Source: Terriglobia bacterium
Lineage (GTDB): Bacteria > Acidobacteriota > Terriglobia > 20CM-2-55-15
DNA length: 64,000 nucleotides
Direction: 5' to 3'
Assembly (NCBI GenBank): GCA_963664115.2
Contig: CAXWPJ010000009.1
Span: 1,088,001-1,152,000 of the forward strand
Position numbers and translations under genes: made by a program. Of the stretch, positions 26,441 to 58,618 are shown in pieces; position 1 is the stretch's first letter; every line of letters starts with the position of its first letter. Under the pieces are notes generated by a model that worked only from the letters and a program-made list of their open reading frames with translations, ran no database searches and was not told the DNA's origin.

Positions 26441-26821
26441 AAGGGACTTTAGTTATCGGTGTAAATCCGGGTCATTGTCAACTCGAGCTGACGCCGCTGG
26501 TCGTTTCCCTTCACGGTGACGTTCAGGATCTATTCCGATTTGGAAGAGGTAGGCTGAAACCGATTCCTCACCGACAGTTGCGGGCGTGTTCTTTCCCGAC
26601 GTGGAAATCGGTTGCCTAAGCGTGATCGATTGAACTCGGTAATCTTCAGTGAAGGTATGGTTTGCCGATACATCGGCTGAACAGATCGGGTTCCTCAAGG
26701 TTTAGGTTGGGTAGAAGTAGCTGAAGCGTTTCCTCTGCTACCGGGAAAGGTCGAGGGACGTTGCCCAAAGGAGCCCGCGCAGGAGCAGGTCATACGTCTC
26801 TGTCTACCGCTGAAATCGATA

Positions 26822-26860
26822 CTCAAGTCCTGCCAAAGCATCTTCGCGGACATTGAGAAT
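26822..26860 (+). repeat. Bulged palindrome, copy 1
   Basis: CTCAAGTCCTGCCAAAGCATCTTCGCGGACATTGAGAAT. Confidence 0.8.
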
Positions 26861-27178
26861 TTCACACTCTGGGCAGAACCAGCCGAGTCTGTCGAGTCAT
26901 CCCCTGAAACTAACAACTCAGAACTGAGGCGGTGGGGCGAGTCGCTGTCGAGGCGTCGTCGGAGTCCTTTCAACACCTGCGATATCGTGACTCCAGACGG
27001 CGTGGCTTACGATTTCGGGTGGGTAACGGTGCCTGATGTGGAGAGATCGATGGGTCTTCATCCCGGCAGTGTGGCACCTAGGGAATTAACCTGACAATGC
27101 CCGCAGATTTTACCTATACTCTGCAGGGTGACACGTAGTTCCCGTGATCGATCGAACCGGCTTGCACTGGAGGGCCTT

Positions 27179-28042: not shown

Positions 28043-28156
28043 CAGATCAACGTCGTCCTGAATTTCTTTGAAGGACCGAAGGAACGGGTTCCCGTCCCGT
28101 AAAACCTTGAAATCCGTTCTCGAGTCCTGATAAATCATCTTCTCGGACCTTGAGAA
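28043..28156 (+). repeat. Kinase 3' stub plus palindrome
   Basis: QINVVLNFFEGPKERVPVP* (28043-28102); palindrome 28117-28156. Confidence 0.85.
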
Positions 28157-28209
28157 TTGGACACGCTATCACCTGCTTGCGGCGGTCATAAGGTGGTACA
28201 AGCAAGGCC

Positions 28210-29319
28210 ATGAAAACCATCATTAGATTTTTCGCGGTGCTTTTGTTGGCGGTAATGCTGTGGGGGCCGGTACCGGTCACGGGCCAGGCCCCGCCGTCCG
28301 CGCTTGTCAACCAGGGGGCAGAGGAAACGGTGGAGGCGGCCCGAGCGGCTTCCCCGCGAACGTCGGAAGAGACGTTTGCGTACTTCGAGGATGAAGTCGA
28401 CGAGGCGCTCGCAAGAGCAATCCAACGTGTCTGGGATCCCACCCGGCCTCGAGGAAGCTCCCCACGTACCCCGTGGGGCGACCCGGACCTGCGGGGATAC
28501 TGGTCGAACATTGCCTATACGCCCTTGGAACGACCCGACGAGCTCGCAGAGAAGCCGCTGTACACGAAAGAAGAAGCGATCGAGGCGTTCCAGGGATACG
28601 TCACCAGGGATGCATCTGTCGATCCGGCAACGGTGCATTATGATTGGACGGAGTTCGGGATGGACATCTGGCAAAGCCCGGTTCGACCGAACCTCCGCAC
28701 GGCGCTGATCGTGGATCCGCCGGACGGGAAGCTTCCCGCTCTGACGCCGCAGGGGAGGAATCGCTTACAGGCACAGGCGAGGGTTGACACACTAGAATCC
28801 CGGAGCCTGTACGAGCGTTGCATTACCGGGAGCCAGGGACCGCCAAGGATTCCTGGCAGACAGCAAACCGGTGAGTCTCAGATCGTCCAGACGCCGGACC
28901 ACGTGGTACTCACCATGCAGTCGAATAGTGATGTGCGCATCATCCCCCTGGATGGACGCCCGCGCCCTCCAGACAGCATTCGAGCTTGGTTGGGCGATGC
29001 ACGCGGCCGCTGGGAGGGTGATACGCTCGTCGTTGAGACGACGAACTTCCATGAGGAGCGCAAGTGGAGAGGAGCTGCGGGCAACCTGCACCTCGAGGAA
29101 CGCTTCACACGAATCGACGAAGCCACACTTCTTTACGAAATCACGGTCACCGATCCGACGACGTGGGAAGCACCATGGACAGTGGAGGTTCCCTGGCCGA
29201 AATTGGAACCGCCGGGGCTGTTTGAGTTCGCGTGCCACGAGCAGAATTATGGCATCATTAACGTCATGCGAGGCGTACAGGCTCGGGCAGCCGAATACGA
29301 AGCGGAGTTGGCGAGGTGA
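28210..29319 (+). CDS. Secreted hypothetical protein, DUF6152 partner family A
   Basis: PRTPWGDPDLRGYW, LIVDPPDGKLP, GRWEGDTLVVETTNF, EFACHE.N. Confidence 0.85.
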   Translation: MKTIIRFFAVLLLAVMLWGPVPVTGQAPPSALVNQGAEETVEAARAASPRTSEETFAYFEDEVDEALARAIQRVWDPTRPRGSSPRTPWGDPDLRGYWSNIAYTPLERPDELAEKPLYTKEEAIEAFQGYVTRDASVDPATVHYDWTEFGMDIWQSPVRPNLRTALIVDPPDGKLPALTPQGRNRLQAQARVDTLESRSLYERCITGSQGPPRIPGRQQTGESQIVQTPDHVVLTMQSNSDVRIIPLDGRPRPPDSIRAWLGDARGRWEGDTLVVETTNFHEERKWRGAAGNLHLEERFTRIDEATLLYEITVTDPTTWEAPWTVEVPWPKLEPPGLFEFACHEQNYGIINVMRGVQARAAEYEAELAR

Positions 29320-29393
29320 TCCACAAGGAAACCTACAAATCTTTGAATGGCCCAGAGCCGAAGAGTCGGACTTTATGGGCAACGGGAGCCACC

Positions 29394-29822
29394 ATGCGGA
29401 ATGCAATCACGATAGTTTGCACGGTTGTCGCGGGTGCTGCGTTACTGTTCTCAGCGCCGGTTGCGGCACATCATTCGTTTGCAGCAGCGTACGACGAGAG
29501 TAAGCCGGTAAACCTGCAGGGAGTAGTCACTCAGGTGGAATTGGTCAACCCGCACTCCTGGATCTGGATGGATGTGACCCACGAAGACGGTACCGTGACC
29601 AACTGGGGGCTGGAAGGGGGTCCACCGATTAACCTCTTCAGGAACGGTGTGACGAAGAATACCTTGCCGGTAGGGTCCGAGATCACGGTCTTTGCGTATC
29701 AGGCCAAGAGTGGAGAAAGCAAAGGCGTCGCGGTGTTCTTCGAGTATCTGGATGGACGAAAGGTGTTCATGGGCGGTTCTGCCCCGGGCGCTGATGGTAA
29801 TCCAAGCCCTCGTACTCGGTAG
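29394..29822 (+). CDS. DUF6152 family secreted protein
   Basis: AHHSFAAAYD, LQGVVT, VNPHSW, W.LEGG. Confidence 0.88.
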   Translation: MRNAITIVCTVVAGAALLFSAPVAAHHSFAAAYDESKPVNLQGVVTQVELVNPHSWIWMDVTHEDGTVTNWGLEGGPPINLFRNGVTKNTLPVGSEITVFAYQAKSGESKGVAVFFEYLDGRKVFMGGSAPGADGNPSPRTR

Positions 29823-29944
29823 AGTTCAAGCCGGAAAAGGTCAACCCGTTTTGGGTCGGTGAGGGCAGTGTCAACTTGGGCCTTAACTGACAGGCTCGCC
29901 CCATGAAATCCACCAAATCTCGCTATAACGGTTGCTGAATTCCA

Positions 29945-30114
29945 TTCTCAACTCCTGACAAATGATCTTCTCGGACCTTGAGAACCCCTGTTTTTGCACC
30001 TTTGTCAACGTCCGACAAGGTTTAACAGGCGTTGAGAATTTGATAGCACCTAACTTCCTGCCTTAGAATCTTTTACCGACTTTTTCACGGTTCTTTCAGC
30101 GACAAACCAAAACG
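29945..30114 (+). repeat. Inverted palindrome doublet plus promoter block
   Basis: Palindromes 29945-29984 and 30002-30038; TTGATA-N18-TAGAAT. Confidence 0.85.
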
Positions 30115-30414
30115 ATGGAATCTGTCACACAACTTGGTCCCCTCGGTAAAGGGAGTATGGGAGAGGTCTACCGTGCCACCGACACCAGCCTAAATCGACA
30201 AGTCGCCATCAAGGTGCTCCCCACCGAATTCGCCCAGGACAGTGAACGTCTGGCCCGTTTCGAGCGCGAGGCGAAATCCCTGGCGACATTGCACCACCCG
30301 AACATCGCCCAGATATTCGGATTTGAGAAGTCCACGGGTGTCCATGCCCTCGTGATGGAGTTGGTGGAGGGACCGACGCTTGCCGACCGTATCACCCAGG
30401 GTGCCATCCCGGTT
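30115..30414 (+). pseudogene. Ser/Thr protein kinase, N-lobe only
   Basis: LGKGSMGEVY, VAIKVL, RFEREA, HPNIA, LVMELVEG; no HRD/DFG, downstream reading is unrelated. Confidence 0.9.
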
Positions 30415-30662: not shown

Positions 30663-31910
30663 GTGATGAAATTAATGCTCAAGAGTTCGAGGCTCCTCGC
30701 ACTCGGTGCCCTCGTTGGAGTCGTCTCGATTGCAGGGTGTGCCACGCAGGAGACCTCAGGAGAGGACGCCAGTACCGCGACCACCACGCAACAGGGCTTG
30801 GTCCATGACGGGCAGGAGCTATTCGGCCATTACTCCCAGCCCCAGCCGTTCCCGCAGGGTTTGCCCGACGACGACCATTCACACGACGGATGGACCTGGG
30901 GGTCCATGGCTGCGGTCTTCGCGGAGAGCTCGGACAGGATTTGGATCGCCATGAGGGGTGAGCTGCCCCTTTCGCCTGGCAACGAACCGTGGACTCCATA
31001 CGCTCTGATGGAGCCCTCTGTGGGGAATGCCTCGCCCAACGACGACAACGGGACGCGTGGATATGAGAGACGCTACCTGCATACCATGATCGCCGTGAAT
31101 TCCCAGGGAGAGCTGGTTGAGCACTGGCCACAACATGACCAGCTCTTCGACGTACGTGGAGGGCGCGGACCCCACAAGATCAAGATGAGTCCGTACGATC
31201 CCGCGAAGAACATCTGGGTCATCGACGACCTCCTACACCAGATCCACAAGTTCTCCTATGACGGCGAGCTGTTGCTCACGCACGGAGAGCAACTCGTACC
31301 CGGACGGGGGCCGAACAACTTCGCCCGCCCGACGGACATCGCGTGGCTGCCAGACGGAACCTACTTCATCAGTGATGGCTACGACGGAACCCGCGTCGCG
31401 AAGTTCGACGCCAACGACAACTTCATCATGGATTGGGGCCAAGCGCCCGTCGACCCCGCGAATCCGGGCCCCTACGAATTCGATACCGTCCATGCCATCA
31501 CAATCAGCCAAGAGAGGCTGCTCTACGTTTCGGACCGGGCGCACGCTCGAATCCAAGTATTCGACGAGAACGGGGAATTCCAGTTCATGTTCCCGACCGG
31601 CCCGCGGGGGCATTCCCTCCCCTACGCGATCGAGGTCCTGAGCGATCCCTCAGGAGAGGAATTCCTTTGGGTTGCGGATGGTGGGATTGGTCGAATGCTG
31701 AAATTCGATCTGCAGGGGAATTTCCTATACGCTTGGGGTATCCCGGGCGGAGAGGATGGCTACTTCAATGGGCCGCACTCAATCACGACCGACGAGAACG
31801 GCAACCTGTATATTGCCGAGGTATTCAACGGCCGGGTCCAGAAGTTCGAGCCCCTGCCGGGAGCCGACCCTGCGAAGATCTTGGGACAGCAACGGCGTGA
31901 GTTTAACTGA
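30663..31910 (+). CDS. NHL-repeat lipoprotein, peptidyl-alpha-hydroxyglycine lyase (PAL)-like
   Basis: Lipobox IAGC; F.RPTDIA, SDGY..RV.KF, VH.I, DR...RIQVFD, RVQKF. Confidence 0.85.
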   Translation: MMKLMLKSSRLLALGALVGVVSIAGCATQETSGEDASTATTTQQGLVHDGQELFGHYSQPQPFPQGLPDDDHSHDGWTWGSMAAVFAESSDRIWIAMRGELPLSPGNEPWTPYALMEPSVGNASPNDDNGTRGYERRYLHTMIAVNSQGELVEHWPQHDQLFDVRGGRGPHKIKMSPYDPAKNIWVIDDLLHQIHKFSYDGELLLTHGEQLVPGRGPNNFARPTDIAWLPDGTYFISDGYDGTRVAKFDANDNFIMDWGQAPVDPANPGPYEFDTVHAITISQERLLYVSDRAHARIQVFDENGEFQFMFPTGPRGHSLPYAIEVLSDPSGEEFLWVADGGIGRMLKFDLQGNFLYAWGIPGGEDGYFNGPHSITTDENGNLYIAEVFNGRVQKFEPLPGADPAKILGQQRREFN

Positions 31911-31925
31911 AGGCCGGATCAGCTA

Positions 31926-33076
31926 GTGTACCCCGCTCGAAGTAATGTAACTAAAATAGCTTTCCAACGTCCAATAGAGAATGAGGAAAGCACCGACCAT
32001 TGAATTGGATGACAAGCAGCGGATGGAGTTGGAGCGACTGAGTCGAAGCCGGAGTACATCGGTCCGGTTGGCGGAACGATCCCGAATTGTATTACTGGCC
32101 GCTGAAGGTCGGAACAATTATGAGATCGCCGCCCGCTTGGAGATCACGCGCCAGAAAGCGGGCCGCTGGCGCAATCGTTTTGTGGAACAGGGCTTGGCTG
32201 GGATCGAAAAGGATGCGCCGCGAAGCGGACGGATTCCCACGATCAGTCGCCGGAAGCGAGCCCGGATCGTCAAGAAGACACTGGAAGAGAAGCCCCCGAA
32301 CGCGACGCACTGGAGTCGGGCCTCGATGGCGAAGGCCGTTGGCGTGAGCGAGTCCACGGTCGGGAAAATCTGGCGGGTCCATGGACTGAAGCCTCATCTG
32401 TCACGAACCTTCAAACTATCCAACGACAAACGATTCGCCGAAAAGCTGGAGGATGTGGTCGGTCTGTATCTGAGCCCACCGGAAAACGCCATTGTCTTGT
32501 CCTGCGATGAGAAGAGCCAGATGCAGGCCCTGGACCGCACGCAACCCGGGTTACCTCTGAAGAAGGGGCGGTGTGGCACCATGACCCACGATTACAAACG
32601 TAACGGGACAACCACGCTTTTCGCCGCGCTCAACATCCTGGACGGTTCGGTCATCGGAACCTGCATGCCAAAGCATCGCCATCAGGAATGGATCCGGTTT
32701 CTGAATCAGATCAAACGCGCCATGCCGAAAGATAAGGAGATCCACATTATTTGCGACAACTATGCGACTCACAAACATCAGAAAGTCGTCAACTGGCTCA
32801 AGCGTAACAAGCGTTTTCATGTGCACTTCACGCCAACCAGTGCGTCGTGGCTCAACATGGTCGAGCGCTTTTTCCGGGATCTGTCCGAGCAACGACTCCG
32901 GCGTGGCGTTTTCCGCTCGGTCCCCGAGTTGATCCAGGCCGTGGAGGACTACCTCGCTCGTCACAATGAAGACCCGAAACCCTTCATCTGGACTGCAACG
33001 GCTTCCGACATCCTTGCTAAAGTCCAGCGCGGCCGGCGAAATCTTGATAAGTTACAGTCTGTTTAACGGGGACCAC
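31926..33076 (+). mobile_element. IS630-family element, apparently intact
   Basis: Flanked by CTAG (TA duplication); imperfect IRs GTGTACCCCGCT / AACGGGGACCAC. Confidence 0.9.
31981..33066 (+). CDS. IS630 transposase
   Basis: DEKSQMQAL, THDYKRNGT, ICDNYATH, SWLNMVERFF. Confidence 0.95.
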   Translation: MRKAPTIELDDKQRMELERLSRSRSTSVRLAERSRIVLLAAEGRNNYEIAARLEITRQKAGRWRNRFVEQGLAGIEKDAPRSGRIPTISRRKRARIVKKTLEEKPPNATHWSRASMAKAVGVSESTVGKIWRVHGLKPHLSRTFKLSNDKRFAEKLEDVVGLYLSPPENAIVLSCDEKSQMQALDRTQPGLPLKKGRCGTMTHDYKRNGTTTLFAALNILDGSVIGTCMPKHRHQEWIRFLNQIKRAMPKDKEIHIICDNYATHKHQKVVNWLKRNKRFHVHFTPTSASWLNMVERFFRDLSEQRLRRGVFRSVPELIQAVEDYLARHNEDPKPFIWTATASDILAKVQRGRRNLDKLQSV

Positions 33077-33082
33077 TAGGAG

Positions 33083-33124
33083 CAACGTGAGGGGTTCCGG
33101 ACAACCGGGGCTCCTCGCGTTGCA
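33083..33124. terminator. GC-rich hairpin after the NHL gene and IS630
   Basis: GCAACGTGAGGGGTTCCGG-ACAA-CCGGGGCTCCTCGCGTTGC. Confidence 0.5.
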
Positions 33125-33514
33125 TCATGGACCTATCTTCGGTCTTCGAAGGAATATGCAGTCCCCGATCGTTACCCGTCGCTCCTGCGACTGTAGCTGA
33201 AACAACGCCAGGGGCCTTCCCCCTCCGCGACCTGGCGCCTCACCATCTCAGTCTAGAATCCCATCGCACGTGCGAACGCTTTGCGAAGGCCTGTCGGGGA
33301 AAAGTGGCGTATTGTCAAGTTTAGGTGTTTGGTGGCGTTCTCGACACCCTTTGCCACCTCTGAGTCATCGATTCCTGGTCTCGGCCCCATCAGAATCCGT
33401 CCCCAAAACGGTTGGATTTGCTCAACCTGACACAGTACCGTTACGCCAGCCAATACCAGGGCGTTTGAATCGCCTACACTGCGGCTGGTGTGAGTCAGAA
33501 CCACCCGGCGGGCG

Positions 33515-33946
33515 TTAGTCTGTTTGGCCACGCTCTGCCAGCAATTTCTCATACCCCTCATCGTCGAGGTGAGTGACTGCGATCCAGGCATGGGACATTT
33601 CGTCGCCCGTGCGGCTACCGTCAAAAACCCACTGATCCGGGTCAGGATTGTTCGGGTTCTTGGCAGTATTGTCATACCACTGCTTGATCACCAGTACTGC
33701 ACCAGCGGGCAACAATGGAGACACAGCAGGATCGTAGATGTGGCTGTGGTGCCAAGTGGCGCTCCAGTTGGAAACCTGGCTGATCTGCTCAGTAAGGCCG
33801 GTCGACGGATAGAACACTTCCAGAGACGCCGCGTTCATACGCAGGTGACCGTGAGGCTGAAAGCTATCGATACGAACTGGATGGTCGAAAGAGTGGAGTC
33901 CTTGGGTCATGACATGGCCATGGGGAGGGATGACCAACTCACCATT
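33515..33946 (-). pseudogene. C-terminal remnant of a copper type II monooxygenase (PHM)-like protein
   Basis: FQPHGHLR, W...W...Y, YDNT.KNPNNPDP, GDEM motifs; fused in frame behind an IS110 fragment. Confidence 0.7.
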
Positions 33947-34472
33947 ATTGATCCGTGCGGTTCGGGTTCGCATCCACGTCGAACGGATTCGATGCAATGA
34001 GGTCAGTTGCTGTTGGGCCAGCGTCTTGATCGGGACCGGATGAATATCGCTGTCACGATAGGCTTCCAACAACCCCTTCACATCCGTACGGTCGGTCTTG
34101 TTGCGCCTGACGTAGGGCGTCACATACTGCGGCGAGATCAGAACGACCGTGTGTCCCAGTTCCCGTATTTGCCGACCCCAGTAATGGGCGGATCCGCAGG
34201 CTTCCATCACCACGGTCGCCAGCTCCTGGTTCGCAAAGAACCCCAGAAACTTTGCCCGACTTAAACGATAGGTTTTCTCTACATGACCGGGGCGATCTGA
34301 AACACCAATTTGGAAAACATTCTTTGCCAGATCCACTGCAATCGTCTTATCCTTCATCTCGGACTCCTTTTTGTTCACACGTACGCGTGTTTCGCCCGCT
34401 TTATTGCGAGGCCCAAAATGACTGTGGCACTTCGATGCCGATTCAGTCATCAAAGAGGAGTCCATACCATCA
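33947..34472 (-). mobile_element. Truncated IS110/IS1111-family element (left end and 137 aa of transposase)
   Basis: IAVDLAKNVFQ, VMEACGSAHYWGR, NKTDRTD; subterminal ATGGACTCCTC 7 nt from the end. Confidence 0.88.
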
Positions 34473-34774
34473 ATAAATCATCTTGTCGGACATTAGAGAA
34501 CCCTCGTATTTAGGCCTTTTCTCACTGTCCGACAATGTCGGTTCTCAGGACTTGAGAATTTGATAGCGCCCAACTGACTCCTCTAGTATCTTTTACCGAG
34601 TTTTTTACGGTTCTTTCGGCTACACACTTTAAACATAGAATCCGGCACGACGCTCGCCCACTAGGAGATCCTGTCGGTTCTCGGCAAAGGACGATGGGAG
34701 AAATGTGGCGTACGCAGATTAAGATGTTCGAGCGTGAGGTCGCGATCAAGACCCTACCTCGAGAGGTCGCCCGG
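34473..34774 (+). repeat. Half palindrome, inverted palindrome, promoter and decayed kinase 5' stub
   Basis: 34473-34500, 34519-34558; TTGATA-N18-TAGTAT; IESGTTLAH*EILSVLGKG/MGEMWR..REVAIKTLP from 34635. Confidence 0.85.
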
Positions 34775-34879
34775 GTTGTTGCCAATCGGGGCTGGATTTC
34801 AGGAGACGACGACGCGACAATGCTTATTCATTGGAAGGAGTCGGCGACAACGAAGACAGCCCCGTTTTGCCGCAACCGT

Positions 34880-35041
34880 TTGGGCGCAGGGGGGGGGCGC
34901 AGGATTTGTCCCTCGTCGGTCGCGATGCAAAGACAGCGCCAGCGGCCTCGGTTTCAGGCCTCGGTGCCCGCTCCTCACTTCGCGCCTGCAACCCGAAGGC
35001 CCCTGCGCGCGGTCCTCGAGACTTCTGCTACGGGCTGCTAG
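34880..35041. mobile_element. Possible MITE or IS-end relic
   Basis: Non-coding GC-rich stretch ending GACTTCTGCTACGGGCTGCTAG, resembling CTAG-targeting IS ends from recall only; partner end not seen. Confidence 0.3.
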
Positions 35042-35086
35042 GGTCCGAAATGCTCGAATGGTGAATTAGCCGGGAGGTAGCAGTTC

Positions 35087-36912
35087 ATGGGAAAGAAGCG
35101 AAAAGAGTCTATCGGCCGACGCAGTTTCCTGAAAGGTGCAGCGGGAGGCGGAGCGGCGCTTGTTGCGACTGCCCCCTAGCTGGCGCGCAGTCTGGGCCCG
35201 GCCCCACGTCGGCGGAGCCGCGTGAAGGGGACGCGACGGCAGGCGGCCGGCCGGGGTCCGACTTCATGATGGACGTCATAAAACCCCTCGGGTTTGAGTA
35301 CATGTCGATCAATCCCCATTCCAGCTCCCGTGGTCTACAGGAATCCATCATCAACTACAGTGGAAACCGCGATCCGGAACTGATCACCTGCCTCCACGAA
35401 GAGGCGGCCGTCGCCATGGCGCATGGATATTTCAAAATTGAAGGCAAACCGATGGCTGCGCTGATATACGGATCAGTCGGTTTGCAGCATGCCTCAATGG
35501 CGGTCTACAGCGCGTTTTGCGACCGCGTGCCGATTTACCTGATGATGGGCAACGAATTGGAGAATCCCAATTCAAGAAGCGTGCAGGATCCTGCGGCGAT
35601 GGTGCGCGACTTTACCAAATGGGACGATGCACCTGTCTCGCTCGATCAATTTGCCAATTCTGCGGTGCGCGCCTATGCCATCGCAATGACCCCGCCGACA
35701 ATGCCTGTTGTATTGTCGGTAGACGAGCGTTTGCAGGAAAATCGGATTCCCAGAGGCACCCGTTTGCGCGTCCCGAAGCTCACTCTGAATGCTCCGGCCC
35801 AGGGCGATGCCACCGCTGTGGCCGAGGTTGCGCGCCTGCTGGTCAACGCTGAGTTTCCGGTCTTGGCCGTCGAGCGCGCTGCGCGAACCGAAGCCGGTCT
35901 CAGCTATATCGTCGAATTGGCGGAACTCCTGCAGGCCGGGGTCGTGGACACGATCCAGCGCATGAATTTCCCCTCGCGCCATCCCCTCAGCCAGGACAGC
36001 GGTGTGTTTGGCAGTGCGGACGTCGTCCTGGCGCTTGAGCACCCGCGACTTTCGCGGTCGAGCCTGATGCAGGATGCAACGCTGCTCAGCATCAGCTCAC
36101 ATGACCTTTTCACGCGGAGCAACTACTGGGATTTCGGAAGCTACCAGGAAGCGGATGTGGCGATCGCAGCCGATGCGGAGGCCACGCTTCCACTCCTGAT
36201 CGAAGAGGTCAAGCGCCGGGTTACCGGCGATCGACAACGCGTGTTCGAAGCGCGTCGCGCGACGCTGGAGGATCGGTTCCAGCGTGCCCTCGAGCGAAAC
36301 CGGCGGCTCGCGGCCTCGGGCTGGAACGGCAGTCCGATCAGCACCGCCCGTGTCGCGGCCGAACTCTGGGCCCAGATCAAGAACAAGGACTGGTCCCTGG
36401 TTTCCCGAAGTGATGGAATGAACGAGTGGGCATGGAAGCTCTGGGATTTCCAGAAGTATCATCACCACATCGGTCAGTCCGGCTCGGTCGGCGTAGGCTA
36501 CAGCAACCCGGCTTCGGTGGGCGCCGCACTGGCAAACCGTAAGCACGGACGTCTGAGCATCAACCTGCAAAACGACGGCGACCTTATGTTTCTCCCCGGG
36601 ACCTTATGGACCGCTGCGCATCACAAGATTCCGATGTTGACCGTCATGCACAACAACCGGGCGTACAACCGGGAAGTGATGTGGGTCGCGCGCACGGCCG
36701 CCGAGCGGGAGCGCGACGTCACCCGATCCGACATCGGCAACTCCATTGACAATCCCAACATTGACTATGCCAAACTCGCCGAAAGCATGGGATGGTACGC
36801 CGAGGGTCCGATAGAAAATCCCGCGGACCTGGGACCGGCCATTCGCCGGGCCCTTGCGGTTGTCGAGCGGGGCGAGCCTGCGTTGCTGGACACGATCACG
36901 CAACCCATCTAG
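35087..36912 (+). CDS. ThDP-dependent enzyme with Tat signal, frameshifted after the signal peptide
   Basis: GRRSFLKG at start; 1 nt missing at C-run 35172-35176; CLHEEAAVAMAHGY, NDGD...HNN ThDP motif. Confidence 0.85.
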
Positions 36913-36921
36913 GAGGTTCCT

Positions 36922-37344
36922 GTGAGTCGTTTACTTATGGATCGCTGGTCGGTCAAACCGCCTTCCTGGGCCCTGGGCGTGGCGGTGCTGCTGCTTGTCG
37001 TCCCGGTGGGGTGGGTCGAGGCCGAGCAGTCGCCGGCCGCGGTTGACGCCGCGCCCGGAGGAAACGTCGAAGACGGAAAGCGGAGCCTGACGACCTATAC
37101 CTGCTCCTCCTGCCACGGTTATTCAGGCCACGGCGGGGTCGACGTAGGCGCTCCCCGCATCGCCACGACTTCAATGTCCCTTGCCGACTTTACGCAATAC
37201 GTGCGGCAGGCCAGCGGTTCTTCAATGCCTCGGTTTAGGGCCGAAATCTTACCCGACACGGTGCTGGCGGATATTTACGCTTTTCTGAAATCCATCCCAC
37301 CGCCACCCGATTCCAGGAGCATTCCTCTGCTGAATGATCTGTAA
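36922..37344 (+). CDS. Monoheme cytochrome c
   Basis: Signal peptide; CSSCHG; distal MP; AGGAGG RBS. Confidence 0.9.
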   Translation: MSRLLMDRWSVKPPSWALGVAVLLLVVPVGWVEAEQSPAAVDAAPGGNVEDGKRSLTTYTCSSCHGYSGHGGVDVGAPRIATTSMSLADFTQYVRQASGSSMPRFRAEILPDTVLADIYAFLKSIPPPPDSRSIPLLNDL

Positions 37345-37363
37345 CGAGGGCCTCAACTTTCCC

Positions 37364-37441
37364 GGGTCAAGTCCTCGCAAATCATCTTCTCGGACATTGA
37401 AACCCCATTTTCAGGGCCTTTTCTCAGTGTCCGACAATGTC
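37364..37441 (+). repeat. Palindrome doublet, second copy cut by IS30
   Basis: 37364-37402 full; 37421-37441 half. Confidence 0.85.
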
Positions 37442-37448
37442 ATTCGGA

Positions 37449-37925
37449 TCAACCGGTCGATGCAACACAAGCATTAAATGTTTCTGCCGGAGTTGCGAAC
37501 TCCAAGGTCTTGCGTGGCCGCTCGTTGAGCTGCCGTGCAACCGCGTCCAGATGCTCCTGTGAGTGTACTGAGAGATTCGTCCTTTTTGGGAAGTAGTATC
37601 GCAGCAGACCATTCGTGTTTTCATTCGATCCGCCTTGCCATGGACTCCGCGGGTCGCAAAAGTACACGGTAATGTCGGTGGCCAGAGTGAACCGTTTGTG
37701 CTCGGCCATCTCCGGACCGCGGTCCCGGGTCAGCGACCTGTAGAGTTCGGTTGGCAGCTTCTTCGCCTGTCGGATCAGTGCCGAAACGACTGTCTCTGTA
37801 ACGGACAGCTTCACCAACATGAGGTAAGACAAATGACGTTCGACCAGCGTTGCGATGTGGGTGTTCCTCGCCGATAGCAGATCCCCTTCCCAGTGTCCCG
37901 GTAGGGCCCGGCGATCGCGACCTAC
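37449..37925 (-). mobile_element. IS30-family transposase, C-terminal remnant
   Basis: PGHWEGDL, TLVER, DRG.EMA, PWQ.GSNENTNGLLR, LNERPRKTL, CVASTG*. Confidence 0.9.
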
Positions 37926-37942
37926 TTGGTCCCGAGATCGAA

Positions 37943-39469
37943 TCAGATGTATTGAGGCCGCGGCTGCTTGACCGGCGGGACCTGAAGCTCGGGCATCGGC
38001 TTTGCGGCAAAGATCCAACGGCACGGTTTCGCAATCAACTTCGCCCATCGGCGCCCGCGGCTGCGAGCGCTGTCGGTGGCGAGCCCCGTATTCGCGTACA
38101 TCTGGGGGAACAGTAAGGAGATCAGAATGTAGGCCAGTCGATCGCGCAGCTTGTTCGTGACCCGCGAGCGCTTCCACACGTTCGACAGGTTATAGAACTC
38201 TTTCCAAACCGCCTGCGTTTTCGTCCGGATCTCATACGGCGTCATCGTTGGATGCGGAATGTAGAGCTTGGGACGTTTGTTCGGTGGGATAAGCCAGAAC
38301 CGGTTCAGCGGGATCCCGTCCACCGTCTCTTTGGCCTGATCGATCTCGCTCTCCCACTTATTGAAATCGACTGTACCGGGAAACGGCGTCAGGGTAACGA
38401 ACTGAGCGAAATCGATCCCTGCCTTGGCAGCGAGATCGGCGGTCGCGTCGAACGTGTCGTCGCGATCCGTCGAAAGCCCAAAAATGAACGAGCCGAGGAT
38501 GTGGACGTCGTGGTCGACAAACTTGCGGAGCCGCTTGACGAGATCGTCTCCCGCGACGTTGAAATCCTTGAATACGGCCTTCAGACCTTCTTCCGTCACC
38601 GACTCGACGCCGACGAGAGCGCCTTTCACGTTCGCGCGTTTCATCGCATCGAGATACTCGTCATCGTCCGCGGCTTCCATCGTGATCTGCGTCAAAAAGA
38701 CCATGTCCTGCGGAAGCTCAGCGAGGCGATCCAAGAGCTCAAAACGCTCCGCACGGATAGCTTTTAACTCTTCCACGCGAGCGCCGGAACGACGCTCCTC
38801 GAGCTCGATGTCTTGCTGCGTGACCGGGTAAAAGTTGTCGTCGGCGAGAAGTATGAAACGAAATCCTTTCCGTCGCAGCTCGACGACCTCCTGGACAACG
38901 GCGTCCGAGGCGTGCTGTCGAGGCCTTTGGCCGTCGGTGCGCCAGACCGAGCAGAAGGAGCAATGTTTCGGGCAACCGCGCACGGTCTGCACCGAGGCGA
39001 TCATGTAGCTCTCTGACGGCATCAAATCCCACCGCGCAGGAAGGAAGGAGTCCCCTTCGATGCGGCCGCCGTCGTAGATCCGTTCCGGCTCGCCCTTTTC
39101 AATATCTTTGAGAACCTGACTCCAGATGTTGTCGCCGTCGCCCTTCACGACCGCGGTCGCGCCGCCATTCTCGAACGCTTCTTCCGGATAGAGCGTCACA
39201 TGCGAACCGCCGAAGACGACATGCGCACCACGCTCGCGCGCCTTTTGCCCGACCTCGTAGCCTCGCAGCGCGTTCAACGTGTGGATACCGATGCCCACGA
39301 CGTCGCCCGGCTGGATCTTGGAATAGTCCATCGGATCGAGCGTCTCATCTACGATAATCGGCGTTCCGAAACGAGCCGGTGTCGCGCACGCGATCACGTA
39401 GAGCCAGCGAGGAACGATGATACCGATACCGAAGGAGGTGTCGCTTGGGTTTATCAAATGTACGCTCAT
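37943..39469 (-). CDS. B12-binding domain radical SAM protein
   Basis: VVFGGSH.T, RGCPKHCSFC, DDNF, GVES, TPFPGT; start at MSVHLINP behind GGAG. Confidence 0.9.
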   Translation of the reverse strand: MSVHLINPSDTSFGIGIIVPRWLYVIACATPARFGTPIIVDETLDPMDYSKIQPGDVVGIGIHTLNALRGYEVGQKARERGAHVVFGGSHVTLYPEEAFENGGATAVVKGDGDNIWSQVLKDIEKGEPERIYDGGRIEGDSFLPARWDLMPSESYMIASVQTVRGCPKHCSFCSVWRTDGQRPRQHASDAVVQEVVELRRKGFRFILLADDNFYPVTQQDIELEERRSGARVEELKAIRAERFELLDRLAELPQDMVFLTQITMEAADDDEYLDAMKRANVKGALVGVESVTEEGLKAVFKDFNVAGDDLVKRLRKFVDHDVHILGSFIFGLSTDRDDTFDATADLAAKAGIDFAQFVTLTPFPGTVDFNKWESEIDQAKETVDGIPLNRFWLIPPNKRPKLYIPHPTMTPYEIRTKTQAVWKEFYNLSNVWKRSRVTNKLRDRLAYILISLLFPQMYANTGLATDSARSRGRRWAKLIAKPCRWIFAAKPMPELQVPPVKQPRPQYI

Positions 39470-39776
39470 GCCGTCTCCATAATGTAGCTTGAAAACCGGA
39501 CTGGGATCCAGCCAAGCAAAGCGGAGAATATAGGAGCACCGCTCCACTGTCAACGTCATGTGAGAGGGCAGGATCGGGCTCGATGAAAGACGAATAACAG
39601 ATCTAAGCCCCTCTCGCGCTGGACGAAGTTGATCCCATTCCACCCACGTCTCTTCCCAATGTCCCGATAGCACTTCGGGCACCCAACCTACAATCCAGTA
39701 GACTCATCATAATGTCCCTCTCCATCCATGTCGATGCTTACTCAGGCTATCGGGCTGTAGATGACCGTGAAAAATA

Positions 39777-39966
39777 TTCTCAAGTCCTGACAAATCATCT
39801 TCGCGGACATTGAAAATCGGCCTAAATACGAGCGTTGACCTTCTGATTGCTTACAACTCCCTCCCTTAGTATTCTTTACGGAGTTTCTCGCAGTTATTTC
39901 AGCGACACACTCTAAACATGGAATCCGGCACCAAACTGGGTCACTACGAAGTCCTCAGCCTCCTTA
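39777..39966 (+). repeat. Palindrome, promoter and kinase 5' stub
   Basis: Palindrome 39777-39816; MESGTKLGHYEVLSLL from 39918. Confidence 0.85.
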
Positions 39967-40103
39967 GGTTTGACCCTGCGGTTAGGAGTTGCGAACTGGC
40001 CTCCGGAGATAATCGTGCGCTGGAAAGGCTCAGCCGGAGGCAGATGGATCTATACTCACGAGCCGGAAGGGAGAAAACTAAATCCGGCTGAAAGGAAAGC
40101 ACC

Positions 40104-41063
40104 ATGACATTGCGCATGCCCATGCTGAGTACGGTCCTGCTGGCGCTGCTGCTGGGAATCGCCGTCAGCGGCGAGTGGTCTGCGATGAAGGCGCAGAGCG
40201 CCTTCTCGCTCACACCGGTCGGCCCCGACCTCTACTTCTACTACACGGGTGGAGCTTCCAACTCCACCGTGCTGATCACCGAGGAAGGGGTACTGATCGT
40301 CGACTCCCAGGGAAATCGGCGCGCCGCCGAAGCGCTGCTGGCGGAGATCCGCAAGAAAACGGCCGACCCTATCAAATGGGTCGTCAACGGGCAAGACCAC
40401 GGCGACCACTATCTCGGCAACGCTGTTTTTAAGCGCGAAGGCGCGGCCATCGTGGCGGAGGCCGAGACGGCTCGCATCATCGCGAGGAATTACGAGTACG
40501 AACTCGAGTGGCGCGGTCTGGATCCGCTCGAGGCCGGAGAACATGTGATCCCCGAGGTCACGTTCGAGGAACGAATGGTCATCCGCTTGGGCGGGCGCGA
40601 GGTCATCCTCCTTCACATCGGTGCGGGGCAGAATCCCGGCGATACGGTCGTGTTGTTTCCCCACGCGCGCGCCGCCTACTCCTCGGGTGCGTTCGCGCCG
40701 AAGTCGTGGTCCAGCACCGCCTACGCCTCGTCCGTGGAGAGCTGGATTGACGTGCTGGAGAAGATCAAAGCGCTAGACGTGGACACCTACCTGCCGGGTC
40801 ACGCCCACAGGGTCACCGACCGGGCCGAGATCGACGAGGAGATTGTGTTGCTGCGCGAGATCCAGGCCGCCGTGGAAGACGCCATTGCGCAGGGTCTGAC
40901 CGCAGAAGAGACCGCCCAGGCGCTGACTTTCGAGCGGTACGCAAACTGGAGGGGTGCCGCGCGGCGCGAACGGAACCTCCGGAACCTCCATTACCTGCTC
41001 TCGACCGGCCGGCCGATCTACTTCGACTACCTGGACGGCCGCACGACCATCAAGCCGTATTAG
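40104..41063 (+). CDS. Secreted MBL-fold hydrolase (cyclase-like)
   Basis: SNS.VL...EGVLIVDS, NGQDHGDHYLGN, PGH; first His and GHT His replaced by Gln. Confidence 0.85.
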   Translation: MTLRMPMLSTVLLALLLGIAVSGEWSAMKAQSAFSLTPVGPDLYFYYTGGASNSTVLITEEGVLIVDSQGNRRAAEALLAEIRKKTADPIKWVVNGQDHGDHYLGNAVFKREGAAIVAEAETARIIARNYEYELEWRGLDPLEAGEHVIPEVTFEERMVIRLGGREVILLHIGAGQNPGDTVVLFPHARAAYSSGAFAPKSWSSTAYASSVESWIDVLEKIKALDVDTYLPGHAHRVTDRAEIDEEIVLLREIQAAVEDAIAQGLTAEETAQALTFERYANWRGAARRERNLRNLHYLLSTGRPIYFDYLDGRTTIKPY

Positions 41064-41145
41064 AGTTTGATCTTGCGTGCGGATAAGCGGTGTAAGCAGG
41101 GGCTGACGACTATGGCAGCGCTGACAGTGTCGTAGTACGATCGGC

Positions 41146-41233
41146 CAGAACTGGTTTGAAGAACTGAAGCTACGGGTGCCGGTTCCTTGATTCTCGGGGT
41201 CAAGTCCTGATAAATCTTCTCGGACGTTGAGAA
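41146..41233 (+). repeat. Kinase 3' stub plus palindrome
   Basis: QNWFEELKLRVPVP* ending 41190; palindrome 41197-41233. Confidence 0.88.
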
Positions 41234-41241
41234 ACCTTTCT

Positions 41242-41688
41242 TCAACCGGTCGGTTTCGGAGTTGCACGTTGACGAGCTTCGCAAAAAGCCTTCAGGCCTG
41301 CGTTCTCTTCTTCAAGGGAGCGTCTCACGGGGGACCTGAGGAGCGGTCCGAGCAGGGTCGCAACAAGACCCAACATTTCGATCCGAAGCACGCTCTGCAC
41401 GCTGCTGCCGGAGGGGTTCACTGCGTGCGTCGCCACTATATGAATACCCCATAGGCGGCCTTCCCACGTAAACATCTTGCCTGGATTGAAGGCAGTGACC
41501 CGCCACCGGATTCGAGGAAGTCCGCGCTGCTTGATCGAGGCTGTACTCCCGTGTCCAAAGGGGCCCTTGTCGAGCTGACTGATCGACTCCACGAAAGGGG
41601 ACCATTCGCCTCATCTTTCAATATCTTCAGTGGCGGTCCAGACGACTTCTGGGGAGGCATCGATGTAAATGACGTTTTCAAGCCTCAT
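41242..41688 (-). pseudogene. SRPBCC/polyketide cyclase family gene with in-frame TGA
   Basis: MRLENVIYIDASPEVVW..TEDIER*GEWSP; TGA at 41611-41613 where Trp is expected; GLKAFCE tail. Confidence 0.8.
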
Positions 41689-41842
41689 TCTTGTGCTGAG
41701 CAGTTTGCCACAGATTTGTCGTGGAGGCCGGAAACGTGAACGAGCTTCTGCGATTGATCTCAGCGTCTCTAAATCCTGCTCGCGACGGACGCTTTCTCGC
41801 GCTGGAATCTACCGAGACAGAGACGACGGCGAAAGGCTCCAC

Positions 41843-42000
41843 TTTATCGCTGTGCTAACCTGGTTTGAAGAACTCAAGGAGCGGGTGCCGGTTCCCTGAT
41901 TTTCCGGGTCAAGTCCTGAGAAATCATCTTGTCGGACGTTGAGAATCGGCAAATTACTGAGGTTTTTCAACGTCCGTATGTCGTTTCTCAGAACTTGAGA
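41843..42000 (+). repeat. Kinase 3' stub plus inverted palindrome doublet
   Basis: FIAVLTWFEELKERVPVP* ending 41899; palindromes 41906-41945 and 41964-42000. Confidence 0.9.
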
Positions 42001-42143
42001 CTTTTCTTGCGCAAAAATTCAGACTTGAGCGAGGCATTCGGGCAGCCTCACTAGCAAAATATTTAAGCAATCAAGAAGACTTTACCGCGGGTGAAATGGC
42101 CCGTGCTCTGTTGGACTTCATACTCAAGGAGACGTAGACGCCA

Positions 42144-42665
42144 ATGTCGAGATTCACAGAACGCATGATTCGCGCTGCGAAGTTAGATGTGAACCTTTAT
42201 GAAGAGGTGGAAGCCGATAAGACGACCATGGGCCAGGCGATGGGCGTGGTGGTGTTGTCTTCTCTTGCCGCCGGCATCGGCAGTATATCCACGGGTGGCA
42301 GAAATTTAATTCTCGTGACCATTGCCGCTTTAGTGGGATGGTATATCTGGGCTTATCTCACTTATTTTATCGGCACCAAATTTCTGCCCGAAACGCAAAC
42401 AAAGGCCGATTACGGAGAACTGTTAAGAACGATCGGATTTTCTAGCTCGCCGGGGCTGATACGGATTTTGGGAATCATTCCAGGGTTCACCAATTTAGTC
42501 TTCTCGGTGGCCGGAATATGGATGCTCATTGCGATGGTCATTGCGGTGCGTCAGGCATTGGACTATACAAGCACCCTGCGAGCGGTGGGTGTGTGCTTGA
42601 TCGGCTGGATCATTCAGAGCATCTTTGTAGGGCTCTTATTGTTGTTTGCGCAGGGTGGCGCTTGA
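42144..42665 (+). CDS. YIP1 family membrane protein
   Basis: YEEVEAD...QA, LLRTIGFS.SPG, AVRQALDY; 5 TM segments. Confidence 0.85.
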   Translation: MSRFTERMIRAAKLDVNLYEEVEADKTTMGQAMGVVVLSSLAAGIGSISTGGRNLILVTIAALVGWYIWAYLTYFIGTKFLPETQTKADYGELLRTIGFSSSPGLIRILGIIPGFTNLVFSVAGIWMLIAMVIAVRQALDYTSTLRAVGVCLIGWIIQSIFVGLLLLFAQGGA

Positions 42666-42812
42666 AAAACCCGCTGATACCTCCGTCTACGCTTCGAGCG
42701 CAACCTCACGATGCCGCCCGCAAGACTCGACGAGGCCAGAATGGATTCGCTACATCCTTTTCTGTACGGCACTTTCATCCCCTACAACATGCCGGTTTAT
42801 CCCGGCGCTTTC

Positions 42813-42843
42813 CCTGATAAATTATCTTCTCGGCGGTTGAGAA
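42813..42843 (+). repeat. Degenerate partial palindrome
   Basis: CCTGATAAATTATCTTCTCGGCGGTTGAGAA. Confidence 0.7.
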
Positions 42844-42905
42844 ATCCACCAGGGGGTTAAGTGGCCCCCCTCAGGAATCTCACCCAAGGAGACGACCTAG
42901 TCGAG

Positions 42906-43067: not shown

Positions 43068-43142
43068 CCGCTATTTCTGAATGAGTGCCCACCGCAAGTG
43101 AGCCACCATCCATCAGGTCACCGAATCTGGAACGAAAAGCGA

Positions 43143-43355
43143 GGTCAAGTCCCGAGAAATCAATCTTCTCGGACGTTGAGAATCGGGCCTAGTTCGTATC
43201 GTTGCTTCCAACCCATTCGTTCTATAGACTTTCTCCCAGTTGTTCCACGTTTCATTAACAGAGAATCTTAGGAATGGAATCCGGCAGCAAACTCGGTTAC
43301 TAGGAGACCCTGTCTGCCCTCGGTAGGGGTGGGATGGGAGAAATGTGGAAGGCCA
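43143..43355 (+). repeat. Palindrome, promoter and kinase 5' stub
   Basis: Palindrome 43143-43182; TTGCTT-N17-TAGACT; MESGSKLGY*ETLSALGRGGMGEMWKA from 43274. Confidence 0.85.
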
Positions 43356-43505
43356 CTGAACTTCGGCAAGTGAGTCATCCTGGAACTGAGAATCGACAGA
43401 GATGAAACGACTCCTTCCACCCTTAAATCCATCGGGATCAACCACCAATGATGCAATAATCTCTCTATGCAGCTGGTCAAGAAATCCAGCAGGGCAAATC
43501 CTGGT

Positions 43506-45122: not shown

Positions 45123-45149
45123 ATAAATCATCTTGTCGGAAGATGAGCA
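45123..45149 (+). repeat. Right half of palindrome
   Basis: ATAAATCATCTTGTCGGAAGATGAGCA; same left breakpoint as 34473. Confidence 0.65.
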
Positions 45150-45225
45150 TTGATCCCACCACTTTCCGATGAACGGACAGCACGGCCAAGTGGAATTCGA
45201 AATTGTCGATTTTCGACAGCATGCG

Positions 45226-55934: not shown

Positions 55935-56061
55935 TTTCAGCATCCTCCCCATCTTGAACGTTTTTCGAACTCTGCAAATCGGTTTTCACCTCTCGCTATA
56001 TTGCGAGACTGCAGTTTTTACGCCTAAGTTACTGATTTTAATTTCTATTCTAGGAACTGAA

Positions 56062-56294
56062 TTCTCAACGTCCGACAATGTTTCTCAGGACTTGAGAATT
56101 TAATAGCGCCTAACCCACTCCTCTAGTATCTTTTACGGAGTTTTTCACGGTTCAATCAGCAACACACTTTAGACATGGAATCCGGCACCCAACTCGGGCA
56201 CTACGAAATCCTCTCAGCCATCGGCAAAGGCGGCATAGAGTGAGGTGTGGGTCTTGATGGCAATTTTCCGGCTGGGCTTGGTGTCCCGCGCACG
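56062..56294 (+). repeat. Inverted palindrome, promoter and kinase 5' stub with internal 45-bp inversion
   Basis: Palindrome 56062-56098; MESGTQLGHYEILSAIGKGG from 56175; 56250-56294 reads RARDTKPSRKIAIKT on minus strand. Confidence 0.88.
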
Positions 56295-57972: not shown

Positions 57973-58057
57973 TGGCTGTTTGAAGAACTGAAGGAACGGG
58001 TGCCCGTGCCCTGATTTCCGAGTTCAAGTCCTGATAAATCATCTTCTCGGACGTTGA
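57973..58057 (+). repeat. Kinase 3' stub plus palindrome
   Basis: WLFEELKERVPVP* ending 58014; palindrome 58022-58057. Confidence 0.88.
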
Positions 58058-58126
58058 CATGTGGATGTGCCGGGTTCTAATGCGATCCAAGAGAAGTAAA
58101 CTTCGCGTTAAATTGTAATCTAGGGA

Positions 58127-58474: not shown

Positions 58475-58548
58475 GAGAACCTGTCAAGCGTGTTTAACGT
58501 CGAAGAGTTTCACTAAGACAGACGTCGTCGTGCTCCCACCCAAAATGA

Positions 58549-58588
58549 TTCTCAGGTCCTGAGAAATCATCTTGTCGGAAGTAGAGAA
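58549..58588 (+). repeat. Bulged palindrome copy
   Basis: TTCTCAGGTCCTGAGAAATCATCTTGTCGGAAGTAGAGAA. Confidence 0.85.
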
Positions 58589-58618
58589 TTTCAGCAAGCG
58601 GAAGCTAGAATTGCGCAA

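What the first reader, a model, noticed from the sequence alone, without database searches (positions are those of the whole stretch)
34501..39836. Spacer between paired palindromes occurs in both orientations
Seen: the spacer at 34501 (CCCTCGTATTTAGGCC) is the reverse complement of the sequence after the palindrome at 39817 (TCGGCCTAAATACGAG), a 14-nt exact match, while the flanking palindrome and promoter keep the same orientation. Spacers at 29985 and 37403 begin CCCC like 34501; those at 41946 and 43183 begin TCGG like 39817. Inference: the ~18-bp spacer flips through recombination or template switching between the inner arms, which suggests the sites are recombinogenic. It lies just upstream of the promoter and could act as a switch.
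Basis: partly seen in the sequence, partly recalled or inferred. Interest (0 to 1): 0.7.

Follow-up and report, generated by a model that had tools for sequence, protein, structure and literature searches.

The report
Palindrome-bounded gene cassettes in Acidobacteria
In a small group of Acidobacteria, some 240 copies of a 40-base palindrome mark the joints of gene units that turn up reshuffled within a genome and shared between species, likely through a recombination enzyme not yet identified; the flipped 18-base spacer is real but is likely a rare inherited scar of that shuffling rather than an on/off switch.

Summary
The 14-nt reverse-complement match is real and unique in the genome. It belongs to a larger system: 243 copies of a ~40-bp two-armed site with a 6-bp core. 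Type A ends gene units in co-oriented arrays; type B lies inverted before a likely Ser/Thr-kinase promoter. The same A-to-A units recur with different neighbours, junctions inside the sites, within G000 and across species, some at 94-98% identity against 78-90% for core loci.

Spacers between A and B occur both ways (30 and 13); 38 of 38 B-less junctions, like 39817, are reversed. Orientation is mostly inherited: 84 of 92 spacers have a same-orientation nearest neighbour, and 39817's family exists in another species. Flips happened more than once but look rare. 39817 lacks a second arm, and the predicted promoter lies outside the spacer. Within-locus flipping could not be tested properly (contigs only).

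The sites fail tests for attC, dif/pdif and GTAG-REP. No enzyme is established. The scan had no note on this sequence; it noted an analogous array elsewhere.

The parts
26816..26861 (+). A-type site (unit end)
28067..28092 (+). remnant of the Ser/Thr kinase 3' end, just before an A site
   Evidence: (D6)
28112..28158 (+). A-type site
28210..29822 (+). cargo of a unit (369-aa ORF and DUF6152 ORF) found at 94.5% in G002 behind a different upstream neighbour
29940..29984 (+). A-type site of doublet
29985..30001 (.). spacer, forward (CCCC-first) class; same orientation in G002
30002..30040 (-). B-type site (3-nt deletion)
30037..30140 (+). conserved promoter-like leader and kinase start (kinase truncated)
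   Evidence: promoter function inferred
33515..34465 (-). IS110-family transposase whose end sits in the A site at 34473
34473..34500 (+). right half of an A site (left arm displaced by IS110)
34501..34518 (.). the finding's spacer, forward class
34519..34560 (-). B-type site
34557..34663 (+). promoter-like leader (sigma70-like match 34560-34589) and decayed kinase start
   Evidence: function inferred
35266..37344 (+). cargo: TPP-dependent enzyme and cytochrome c
37359..37402 (+). A-type site of doublet
37403..37420 (.). spacer, forward class; same orientation in one spanning contig from each of two runs
   Evidence: table 8
37421..37444 (-). B-type half site, interrupted by an rve-type (IS30-like, recalled) element from 37447
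39776..39816 (+). A-type site
39817..39834 (.). the finding's second spacer, reversed class, with no B site behind it
39835..39947 (+). likely last bases of a deleted B site, then promoter-like leader and kinase start
   Evidence: deletion inferred
40104..41063 (+). cargo: metallo-beta-lactamase-fold hydrolase
41193..41234 (+). A-type site preceded by kinase 3' remnant (41155-41180)
41901..41945 (+). A-type site of doublet, preceded by kinase 3' remnant (41864-41889)
41946..41963 (.). spacer, reversed class, between A and B
41964..42001 (-). B-type site (2-nt deletion)
42631..42775 (-). group II intron domain fragment next to a half site at 42813-42844
43140..43182 (+). A-type site followed by a shortened reversed-class start and promoter remnant (43202-43302), no B
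45123..45150 (+). right half of an A site
56060..56102 (-). B-type site without an A partner, before promoter-like leader (56097-56204)
58016..58058 (+). A-type site after kinase 3' remnant (57979-58004)
58546..58590 (+). A-type site

Best explanation
The palindromes are the junction sites of gene-cassette arrays, and units between same-strand A sites are likely cut out and re-inserted by exchange at the 6-bp core, probably started by a tyrosine-type recombinase that is not yet identified. Shown: co-oriented arrays, units recurring with new neighbours and junctions inside the sites, arm alleles linked within each arm but not across the core. Inferred: the founding cassette was a ~880-aa Ser/Thr kinase gene, whose promoter-plus-start and last codons survive around unrelated cargo; B plus promoter acts as a head that drives the units behind it. 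Where an A site faces a B site, the 17-19-nt spacer is the loop of a stable inverted repeat. It has likely been inverted a few times in evolution by template switching or A-by-B arm exchange, and the two orientations were then spread by cassette shuffling. 39817 is likely a reversed junction whose B hairpin was later deleted. The spacer is a by-product, not a phase switch.
For: 243 sites in G000; 99 of 101 neighbouring A pairs under 7 kb share a strand. 10 of 15 unit pairs have a new neighbour on at least one side, e.g. C2:264297-265623 = C6:43763-45089 at 99.3%. Units shared with G002 reach 93% or more in 11 of 25 cases against 84-90% at xerC/xerD loci; with G001 in 3 of 4 against 78-83%. Cramer's V is 0.22-0.40 for the significant within-arm pairs and 0.05 between positions 21 and 32 (n=234). 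Hybrid sites with two right arms or two left arms exist. 4 of 5 full-length kinases checked end in a whole or partly deleted A site; 77 of 186 units end in a kinase tail. G001 has one B-promoter head followed by seven A-ended units. Doublets fold at -15 to -20 kcal/mol, z -3.6 to -4.6. Spacer tallies and nearest neighbours. Template switching between inverted arms is a documented cause of spacer inversion (PMC8604942, passages).
Against: No enzyme co-occurs cleanly with the sites. The C5 recombinase flanked by two B sites was not found in G002, G003, G102 or G143, and 0 of 80 homolog loci carry a site. Inner alleles are poorly tied to either flank (position 21 differs in 15 of 30 right-linked and 15 of 24 left-linked pairs), which a single fixed crossover does not predict. 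No excised circle was observed. Promoter function is untested, the consensus scan found no plus-strand match at 39842, and the longest ORF lies opposite to the site in 59 of 161 units. Relatives were sampled in part only.
Confidence: 0.55

Rival explanations
1. BIME/REP-like system: A and B are two REP types in inverted doublets with short (18-nt) and long (108-nt) linkers, cut and rejoined on single strands by the RAYT-like Y1 protein at C10:489979. Cassette movement and spacer flips are side products.
For: Same anatomy as BIMEs (PMC3333891, passages): 20-40 nt, two types, inverted, short or long linkers, IS targets. Two one-base bulges in the predicted stem. The Y1 gene lies 200 bp from an A site in G000. 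Orthologs are present in G001, G002, G003 (64-82%) and broken in G004, which has no intact site.
Against: No conserved GTAG-like tetranucleotide at either foot. No compensatory changes in the stem. Two intact single A sites fold no better than shuffles. No site within about 1.5 kb of the G001-G003 orthologs. A 54% ortholog is in G022, which has no site. The linkage break is at the core, not outside the hairpin.
Confidence: 0.2
2. No dedicated enzyme: the sites are selfish or relic repeats, and units move by RecA-type or slippage recombination in 34-300 bp of shared sequence (site plus kinase ends), with gene conversion mixing the alleles.
For: Breakpoints fall at different positions in the site. 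Kinase remnants end at very variable points. No recombinase tracks the sites.
Against: Several units share only the ~34-bp site with their new neighbours. Two core types stay distinct across four species. Arrays are strictly co-oriented. At least five kinds of mobile element insert in or beside the core.
Confidence: 0.15
3. One reading: the spacer is an actively flipping element that switches the downstream promoter.
For: Both orientations in G000 (13 forward, 11 reversed with B present). On a promoter tree the reversed-with-B junctions are scattered (10 changes for 10 rows). Inner arms pair at up to 16 of 17.
Against: The reversed-with-B spacers form their own sequence family rather than fresh inversions, so the scatter fits reshuffling. 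The spacer lies outside the predicted -35/-10. 39817 has no second arm. The 108-nt linker has one orientation in 6 of 6. No strand-change joint among the 6 joints at an intact doublet (contigs only, weak). Cores about 55-60 bp apart are likely too close for a recombinase synapse (recalled knowledge).
Confidence: 0.07
4. Known enzymes in an unusual guise: host XerCD on degenerate dif-like sites, or the orphan IntI on minimal attC-like sites.
For: Two arms around a 6-bp core, as in dif/pdif (PMC13141974, passages). One arm matches the host dif XerC arm at up to 8 of 11 positions. IntI is present in G000, G001 and G002.
Against: Mean match to the host dif candidate is 10.5-12.1 of 22, and TTAT occurs in 0 of 275 right arms. 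G004 has XerCD but no intact site. IntI was not found in G003 (49 sites; 95% complete) and no site lies in the 36 kb around it in G000. attC geometry and the circle-complementarity test are not met.
Confidence: 0.08

Closest known systems
Integrons and integrase-less cassette arrays (attC/attI/Pc)
   Same: Co-oriented arrays of mostly one- or two-gene units each ending in a palindromic site; a promoter-bearing head; units shared between species; sites targeted by IS110-family elements and a group II intron.
   Different: The site is ~40 bp with bulges on opposite arms and no unpaired central spacer; AAC box not kept; linkage breaks at the central core; many heads per genome; ends derived from a kinase gene; IntI not beside arrays.
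E. coli BIME / REP-RAYT (TnpA-REP) systems
   Same: Hundreds of 30-40-nt imperfect palindromes of two types in inverted doublets with short or long conserved linkers; IS targets; a Y1 HUH gene in the genus.
   Different: No GTAG-type foot; most sites are single and bound mobile gene units; the Y1 orthologs are not flanked by the sites.
Acinetobacter dif modules (pdif, XerCD)
   Same: Two arms around a 6-bp spacer; modules shuffled by exchange at the sites; inversions between opposed sites.
   Different: Chromosomal, mostly direct repeats rather than alternating C/D modules; arms lack the ATAA/TTAT inner motifs.
Spacer inversion by template switching between inverted-repeat arms
   Same: A short loop between arms of 10 bp or more found in both orientations.
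   Different: Here the arms are repeated sites in hundreds of copies, so orientations can also spread by reshuffling; the yeast spacers described were 2-5 bp.
Phase-variable invertons (fim, hin, Bacteroides promoters; recalled)
   Same: DNA between inverted repeats next to a promoter.
   Different: The inverted piece is 18 bp, does not contain the predicted promoter, and shows inherited rather than mixed states.

Membership tests
Integron attC array | R boxes with AAC ... GTT | tested here: not met
   Left box ends AAG in 251 of 275 sites and AAC in 17; GTT start in 169 of 275. Consensus from PMC2727003 passages and recall.
Integron attC array | Unpaired central spacer, and extrahelical bases on the R''-L'' arm | tested here: not met
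   Single bulges on opposite arms, no central bubble (definition).
Integron attC array | Unit end complementary to unit start, as expected from circular cassettes | tested here: not met
   1.18 pairs against 1.11 +/- 0.11 random, 133 adjacent pairs.
Integron attC array | IntI next to the array | tested here: not met
   IntI at C9:714590-715873 (439 bits) has no site in the 36 kb scanned; none in 20 kb around the G001 and G002 copies.
Integron attC array | Co-oriented mobile cassettes (works like) | tested here: met
REP/BIME-RAYT | Conserved GTAG-type tetranucleotide at the hairpin foot | tested here: not met
   Commonest feet ATTC 78 of 275 (top) and ATTC 142 of 275 (bottom); definition PMC8266576 passages.
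REP/BIME-RAYT | Two inverted palindromes with conserved short or long linkers, high copy number, IS targets | tested here: met
   definition
REP/BIME-RAYT | Y1 transposase gene flanked by the repeats | tested here: inconclusive
   One A site 200 bp upstream in G000; none near the orthologs in G001-G003.
REP/BIME-RAYT | Single-strand cleavage by the Y1 protein | not testable with these tools
   needs an in vitro assay
dif/pdif XerCD sites | 11-bp arms with ATAA and TTAT around a 6-bp core | tested here: not met
   6-bp core present, but TTAT in 0 of 275 and ATAA in 51 of 275; 10.5-12.1 of 22 matches to the host dif candidate.
Tn3-family or large serine recombinase elements | Cognate transposase or recombinase in the genome | tested here: not met
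   PF01526 not found in G000; PF07508 not found in G000-G003.
Phase-variable inverton | Inverted segment contains the promoter | tested here: not met
   The only sigma70-like match in 34400-34700 is at 34560-34589, outside the spacer.
Phase-variable inverton | Both orientations at one locus in one population | tested here: inconclusive
   Only Logan contigs, swamped by paralogs.

The most novel reading that the evidence does not exclude
A previously undescribed gene-capture system: a Ser/Thr-kinase gene became the chassis of a mobile cassette, its promoter and tail now frame captured cargo, and an unknown recombinase acting on a 40-bp two-type site (A for cassette ends, B for promoter heads) builds and reshuffles about 100 cassettes per genome and trades them between species, independently of integrons, XerCD and REP transposases.
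Probability: 0.3. Interest if true: 0.8.

Novelty: new variant of a known kind. Interest (0 to 1): 0.6.

Why it matters
Few systems are known that stockpile and reorder genes at short repeated sites. This one has integron-like output but fails the sequence tests for attC, dif and REP, so tools that look for those would likely miss it. It gives a short, testable substrate (A-by-A excision) and four named candidate enzymes. It also offers one route by which multi-copy Ser/Thr kinase genes in Acidobacteria could spread and decay. The spacer flip itself matters mainly as a marker that opposed sites exchange strands.

Tried and rejected
Within-locus flipping: laid contigs of runs X1, X3, X4, X9 on window 28000-46000 (15 of 116 joints were shown, so strand-change joints cannot be excluded) and X1, X3, X4, X8 on an intact doublet (6 of 6 joints shown, none changes strand; one contig replaces the 19-nt spacer with unknown letters and may be a paralog). 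Inconclusive. Joints that skip whole units have sides under 30 nt and were not used.

C5 tyrosine recombinase as cognate enzyme: attractive layout but not found in four site-bearing genomes and 0 of 80 homolog loci have sites; kept only as a candidate. IS91-linked integrases: judged to be elements that insert at or near the sites. Tn3-type terminal repeats: GGGG abuts only one of the two sites and no transposase was found. Target-site duplication: adjacent sites are no more alike than random. Hairpin conservation: no covariation. Replication-strand bias: 79 leading, 40 lagging, 37 unclear, on noisy skew; not used. A search for a conserved enzyme near sites showed kinases, transposases and cargo in the rows shared by two or more relatives. 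The doublet pattern found nothing in genome contigs, where close relatives may be left out. The promoter-left split used too loose a motif, and only the B-core counts were read from it. Five literature searches returned nothing.
Full report
OBSERVATION. Window 34503-34516 is the exact reverse complement of 39819-39832, and the 14-mer occurs once each way in the genome. The inverted match runs 61 nt and covers a whole palindrome plus the spacer (I1). The window is G000:C9:1088001-1152000. Relatives carrying the site are titled Terriglobia bacterium.

THE SITE. The consensus is TCAAGTCCTGAnAA, a 6-bp core, TTnTCGGACnTTGA, usually extended by TTC and GAA. A profile finds 243 copies in G000: 165 with core ATCATC (my label A), 31 with core ACGACA or ACGACC (B), 47 partial or untyped. 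99 of 101 neighbouring A pairs under 7 kb share a strand. B lies reversed in front of a conserved ~100-bp leader that ends in the start of a Ser/Thr kinase gene. That the leader is a promoter is inferred: a sigma70-like match lies at 34560-34589, but none was found on the plus strand at 39842. A 34-letter pattern with up to 3 mismatches hit 8 of 401 genomes of the class, in 2 of 147 genera: 138, 88, 49 and 8 copies in G000, G002, G003 and G001, none in G004, and 1-3 in four genomes of a sister genus. Decayed B sites with the leader exist in G004.

THE UNITS MOVE. Self-comparison shows duplications that start and stop inside sites, e.g. C2:264297-265623 against C6:43763-45089 at 99.3%. Among 186 A-to-A units (median 2.1 kb; G000 whole, relatives in part), 15 pairs matched end to end. 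Five lie inside longer duplications; ten have a new neighbour on at least one side, three copies of one unit lying in G000 (twice) and G001. Units shared with G002 are 93% or more identical in 11 of 25 cases, against 84-90% for the long alignments at xerC/xerD loci; with G001 in 3 of 4, against 78-83%. This suggests transfer between species. Four of five full-length kinases checked end in a whole or partly deleted A site; 77 of 186 units end in a kinase tail and 40 carry a kinase 5' remnant of variable length. G001 holds a compact case: one B-plus-leader head, then seven A-ended units whose ORFs all face the same way. Overall the longest ORF follows the site strand in 102 units and opposes it in 59, with 25 lacking one.

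WHERE EXCHANGE HAPPENS. Among 234 A-core sites, alleles are linked within the left arm (V 0.22-0.40) and within the right arm (0.27-0.32) but not across the core (positions 21 and 32: 0.05). Facing positions do not covary, and two intact single A sites fold no better than shuffles, although one B site with a deletion does. This fits a two-armed protein-binding site with exchange at the core. Against a simple picture, inner alleles are only weakly tied to either flank: position 39 differs in 13 of 30 right-linked pairs and position 21 in 15 of 24 left-linked pairs. A junction made at the core that migrates to the end of an arm and is resolved by host functions would give this pattern; that step is inference. 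Hybrid sites with two right arms (C2:253787, C9:991802) or two left arms (C4:106317) point to A-by-B exchange or collapse. Two IS110 types, an rve-type element, IS91-like elements and a group II intron have inserted in or beside the core.

THE SPACER. 31 convergent pairs lie within 140 nt in G000; six have a 108-nt linker, all in one orientation. For short spacers I took 85 junctions, dropped 7 irregular and 4 duplicate rows and added 7 by coordinate. Of these 81, junctions with B are 30 forward and 13 reversed, and junctions without B are 38 of 38 reversed. Forward spacers align to reversed ones only after reverse-complementing (19.3, against 11.1 direct and 13.0 +/- 0.9 shuffled), so the two classes are one sequence inverted. 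In an extended set of 92 (a few duplicates included; one B-less forward candidate fell just under the cut-off), 84 spacers have a same-orientation nearest neighbour. Eight do not, among them 34501 (nearest: 39817) and C5:214552, a forward-family sequence reversed with a decayed B behind it. One ancient inversion therefore does not explain all copies, but most of the tally is inheritance. On a tree of 74 leaders (111 columns, rough support), reversed-with-B rows need 10 changes for 10 rows, while B-less rows cluster (7 changes against 24.9 shuffled). Since reversed-with-B spacers are one sequence family, this scatter fits reshuffling at B better than fresh flips. The 39817 family has several copies in G002. 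The unit before 29985 is followed by a forward doublet in G002 too. Other pairs sharing one flank differ in junction type, as shuffling predicts. B-less junctions keep the leader in register after TTGA, and several end in the four-base variants that end B, so I infer deletion across the B hairpin; the opposite order (B made by inverted duplication) is not excluded. Doublets fold strongly through their inner arms. Template switching is a documented route to spacer inversion between arms longer than 9 bp in yeast (PMC8604942, passages).

IS IT A SWITCH? Unlikely. The spacer lies upstream of B and of the predicted -35; 39817 has no partner arm; the cores of a doublet are about 55-60 bp apart. Public runs hold the organism only as contigs. 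One contig in each of two runs spans 37403 with one difference from the window. At an intact doublet none of 6 joints changes strand. Contigs drop rare variants, so this is weak.

THE ENZYME. (1) A 321-aa tyrosine recombinase ORF sits between two opposed B heads at C5:52054-53275 and a homolog neighbours kinase leaders in G007, but it was not found in G002, G003, G102 or G143 and 0 of 80 homolog loci have a site. (2) IntI is in G000, G001 and G002, not found in G003, and never beside sites in the stretches scanned. (3) A Y1 HUH protein lies 200 bp from an A site; orthologs are in G001-G003 and broken in G004, but are not flanked by sites, and one is in site-free G022. By its motifs it resembles class 2 of PMC6006769 (passages). 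(4) The host dif candidate at C2:108140 resembles one arm at up to 8 of 11 positions, but TTAT is absent from all 275 right arms. No Tn3 transposase or large serine recombinase was found. I favour a tyrosine-type enzyme because of the two-arm, 6-bp-core layout and the linkage break at the core, at modest odds.

COMPARISON. It works like an integron array and is laid out like a BIME (PMC3333891 and PMC8266576, passages) or a dif module (PMC13141974, passages), but fails a defining sequence test for each (attC features from PMC2727003, passages, and recall). For all six papers I saw only search listings and keyword passages, no supplements. Searches returned no paper; they cover open-access text only, so they do not prove the system is undescribed. 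Rfam found only the intron fragment in 26000-60000. The scan's own notes had nothing for this sequence and one analogous array in other bacteria.

VERDICT. Observation real; switch unlikely; the sites are the junctions of a lineage-restricted, integron-like cassette system with an unidentified enzyme. Novelty: new variant of a known kind, with a 30% chance of a distinct system. Interest 0.6.

Noticed in passing
G000:C5:52054-53275 (L019): A tyrosine recombinase gene between two opposed, nearly identical B-plus-leader heads, with A sites pointing away on both sides.
   Followed up: yes
window 42631-42775 and G000:C5:37621-39670 (L428): Group II intron fragment beside a half site in the window; a full intron with a 454-aa RT frame splits an A site on C5.
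   Followed up: partly
G000:C9:714590-715873 (L012): Integron integrase (TIGR02249, 439 bits) with no attC-like hairpin passing my filter in 36 kb.
   Followed up: partly
window 12427-12492 and 13607-13690: tRNA-Leu with a 66-nt direct repeat 1.2 kb away, likely the attachment ends of a small island.
   Followed up: no
window 43506-43567: Perfect 31-bp tandem duplication; contigs of four runs skip one copy.
   Followed up: no
G000:C2:776399-777349; L452:9906-10856: Kinase genes that appear to have lost the catalytic domain in frame, joining the first codons to the C-terminal part.
   Followed up: no
L198, L359-L387 (sister genus) and G004: The same leader and kinase ends recur with different upstream motifs, suggesting parallel junction families.
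   Followed up: partly
G000, six loci, e.g. C1:92926-95360: Identical IS91-like elements (integrase plus Y2 transposase) inserted mostly 20-30 bp from a site; two other IS91-like elements sit at the core.
   Followed up: partly
G000:C2:108140 (minus strand): Typical dif-like site at a GC-skew sign change.
   Followed up: partly
G000:C6 and C11; C2:463-5365 and C2:161968-166869: Multi-unit duplications of about 5-8 kb at about 99.9% identity; recent duplications or assembly artefacts.
   Followed up: no
G000 genome-wide: A highly repeated element (16-mers counted up to 79 times) dominates the repeat content.
   Followed up: no
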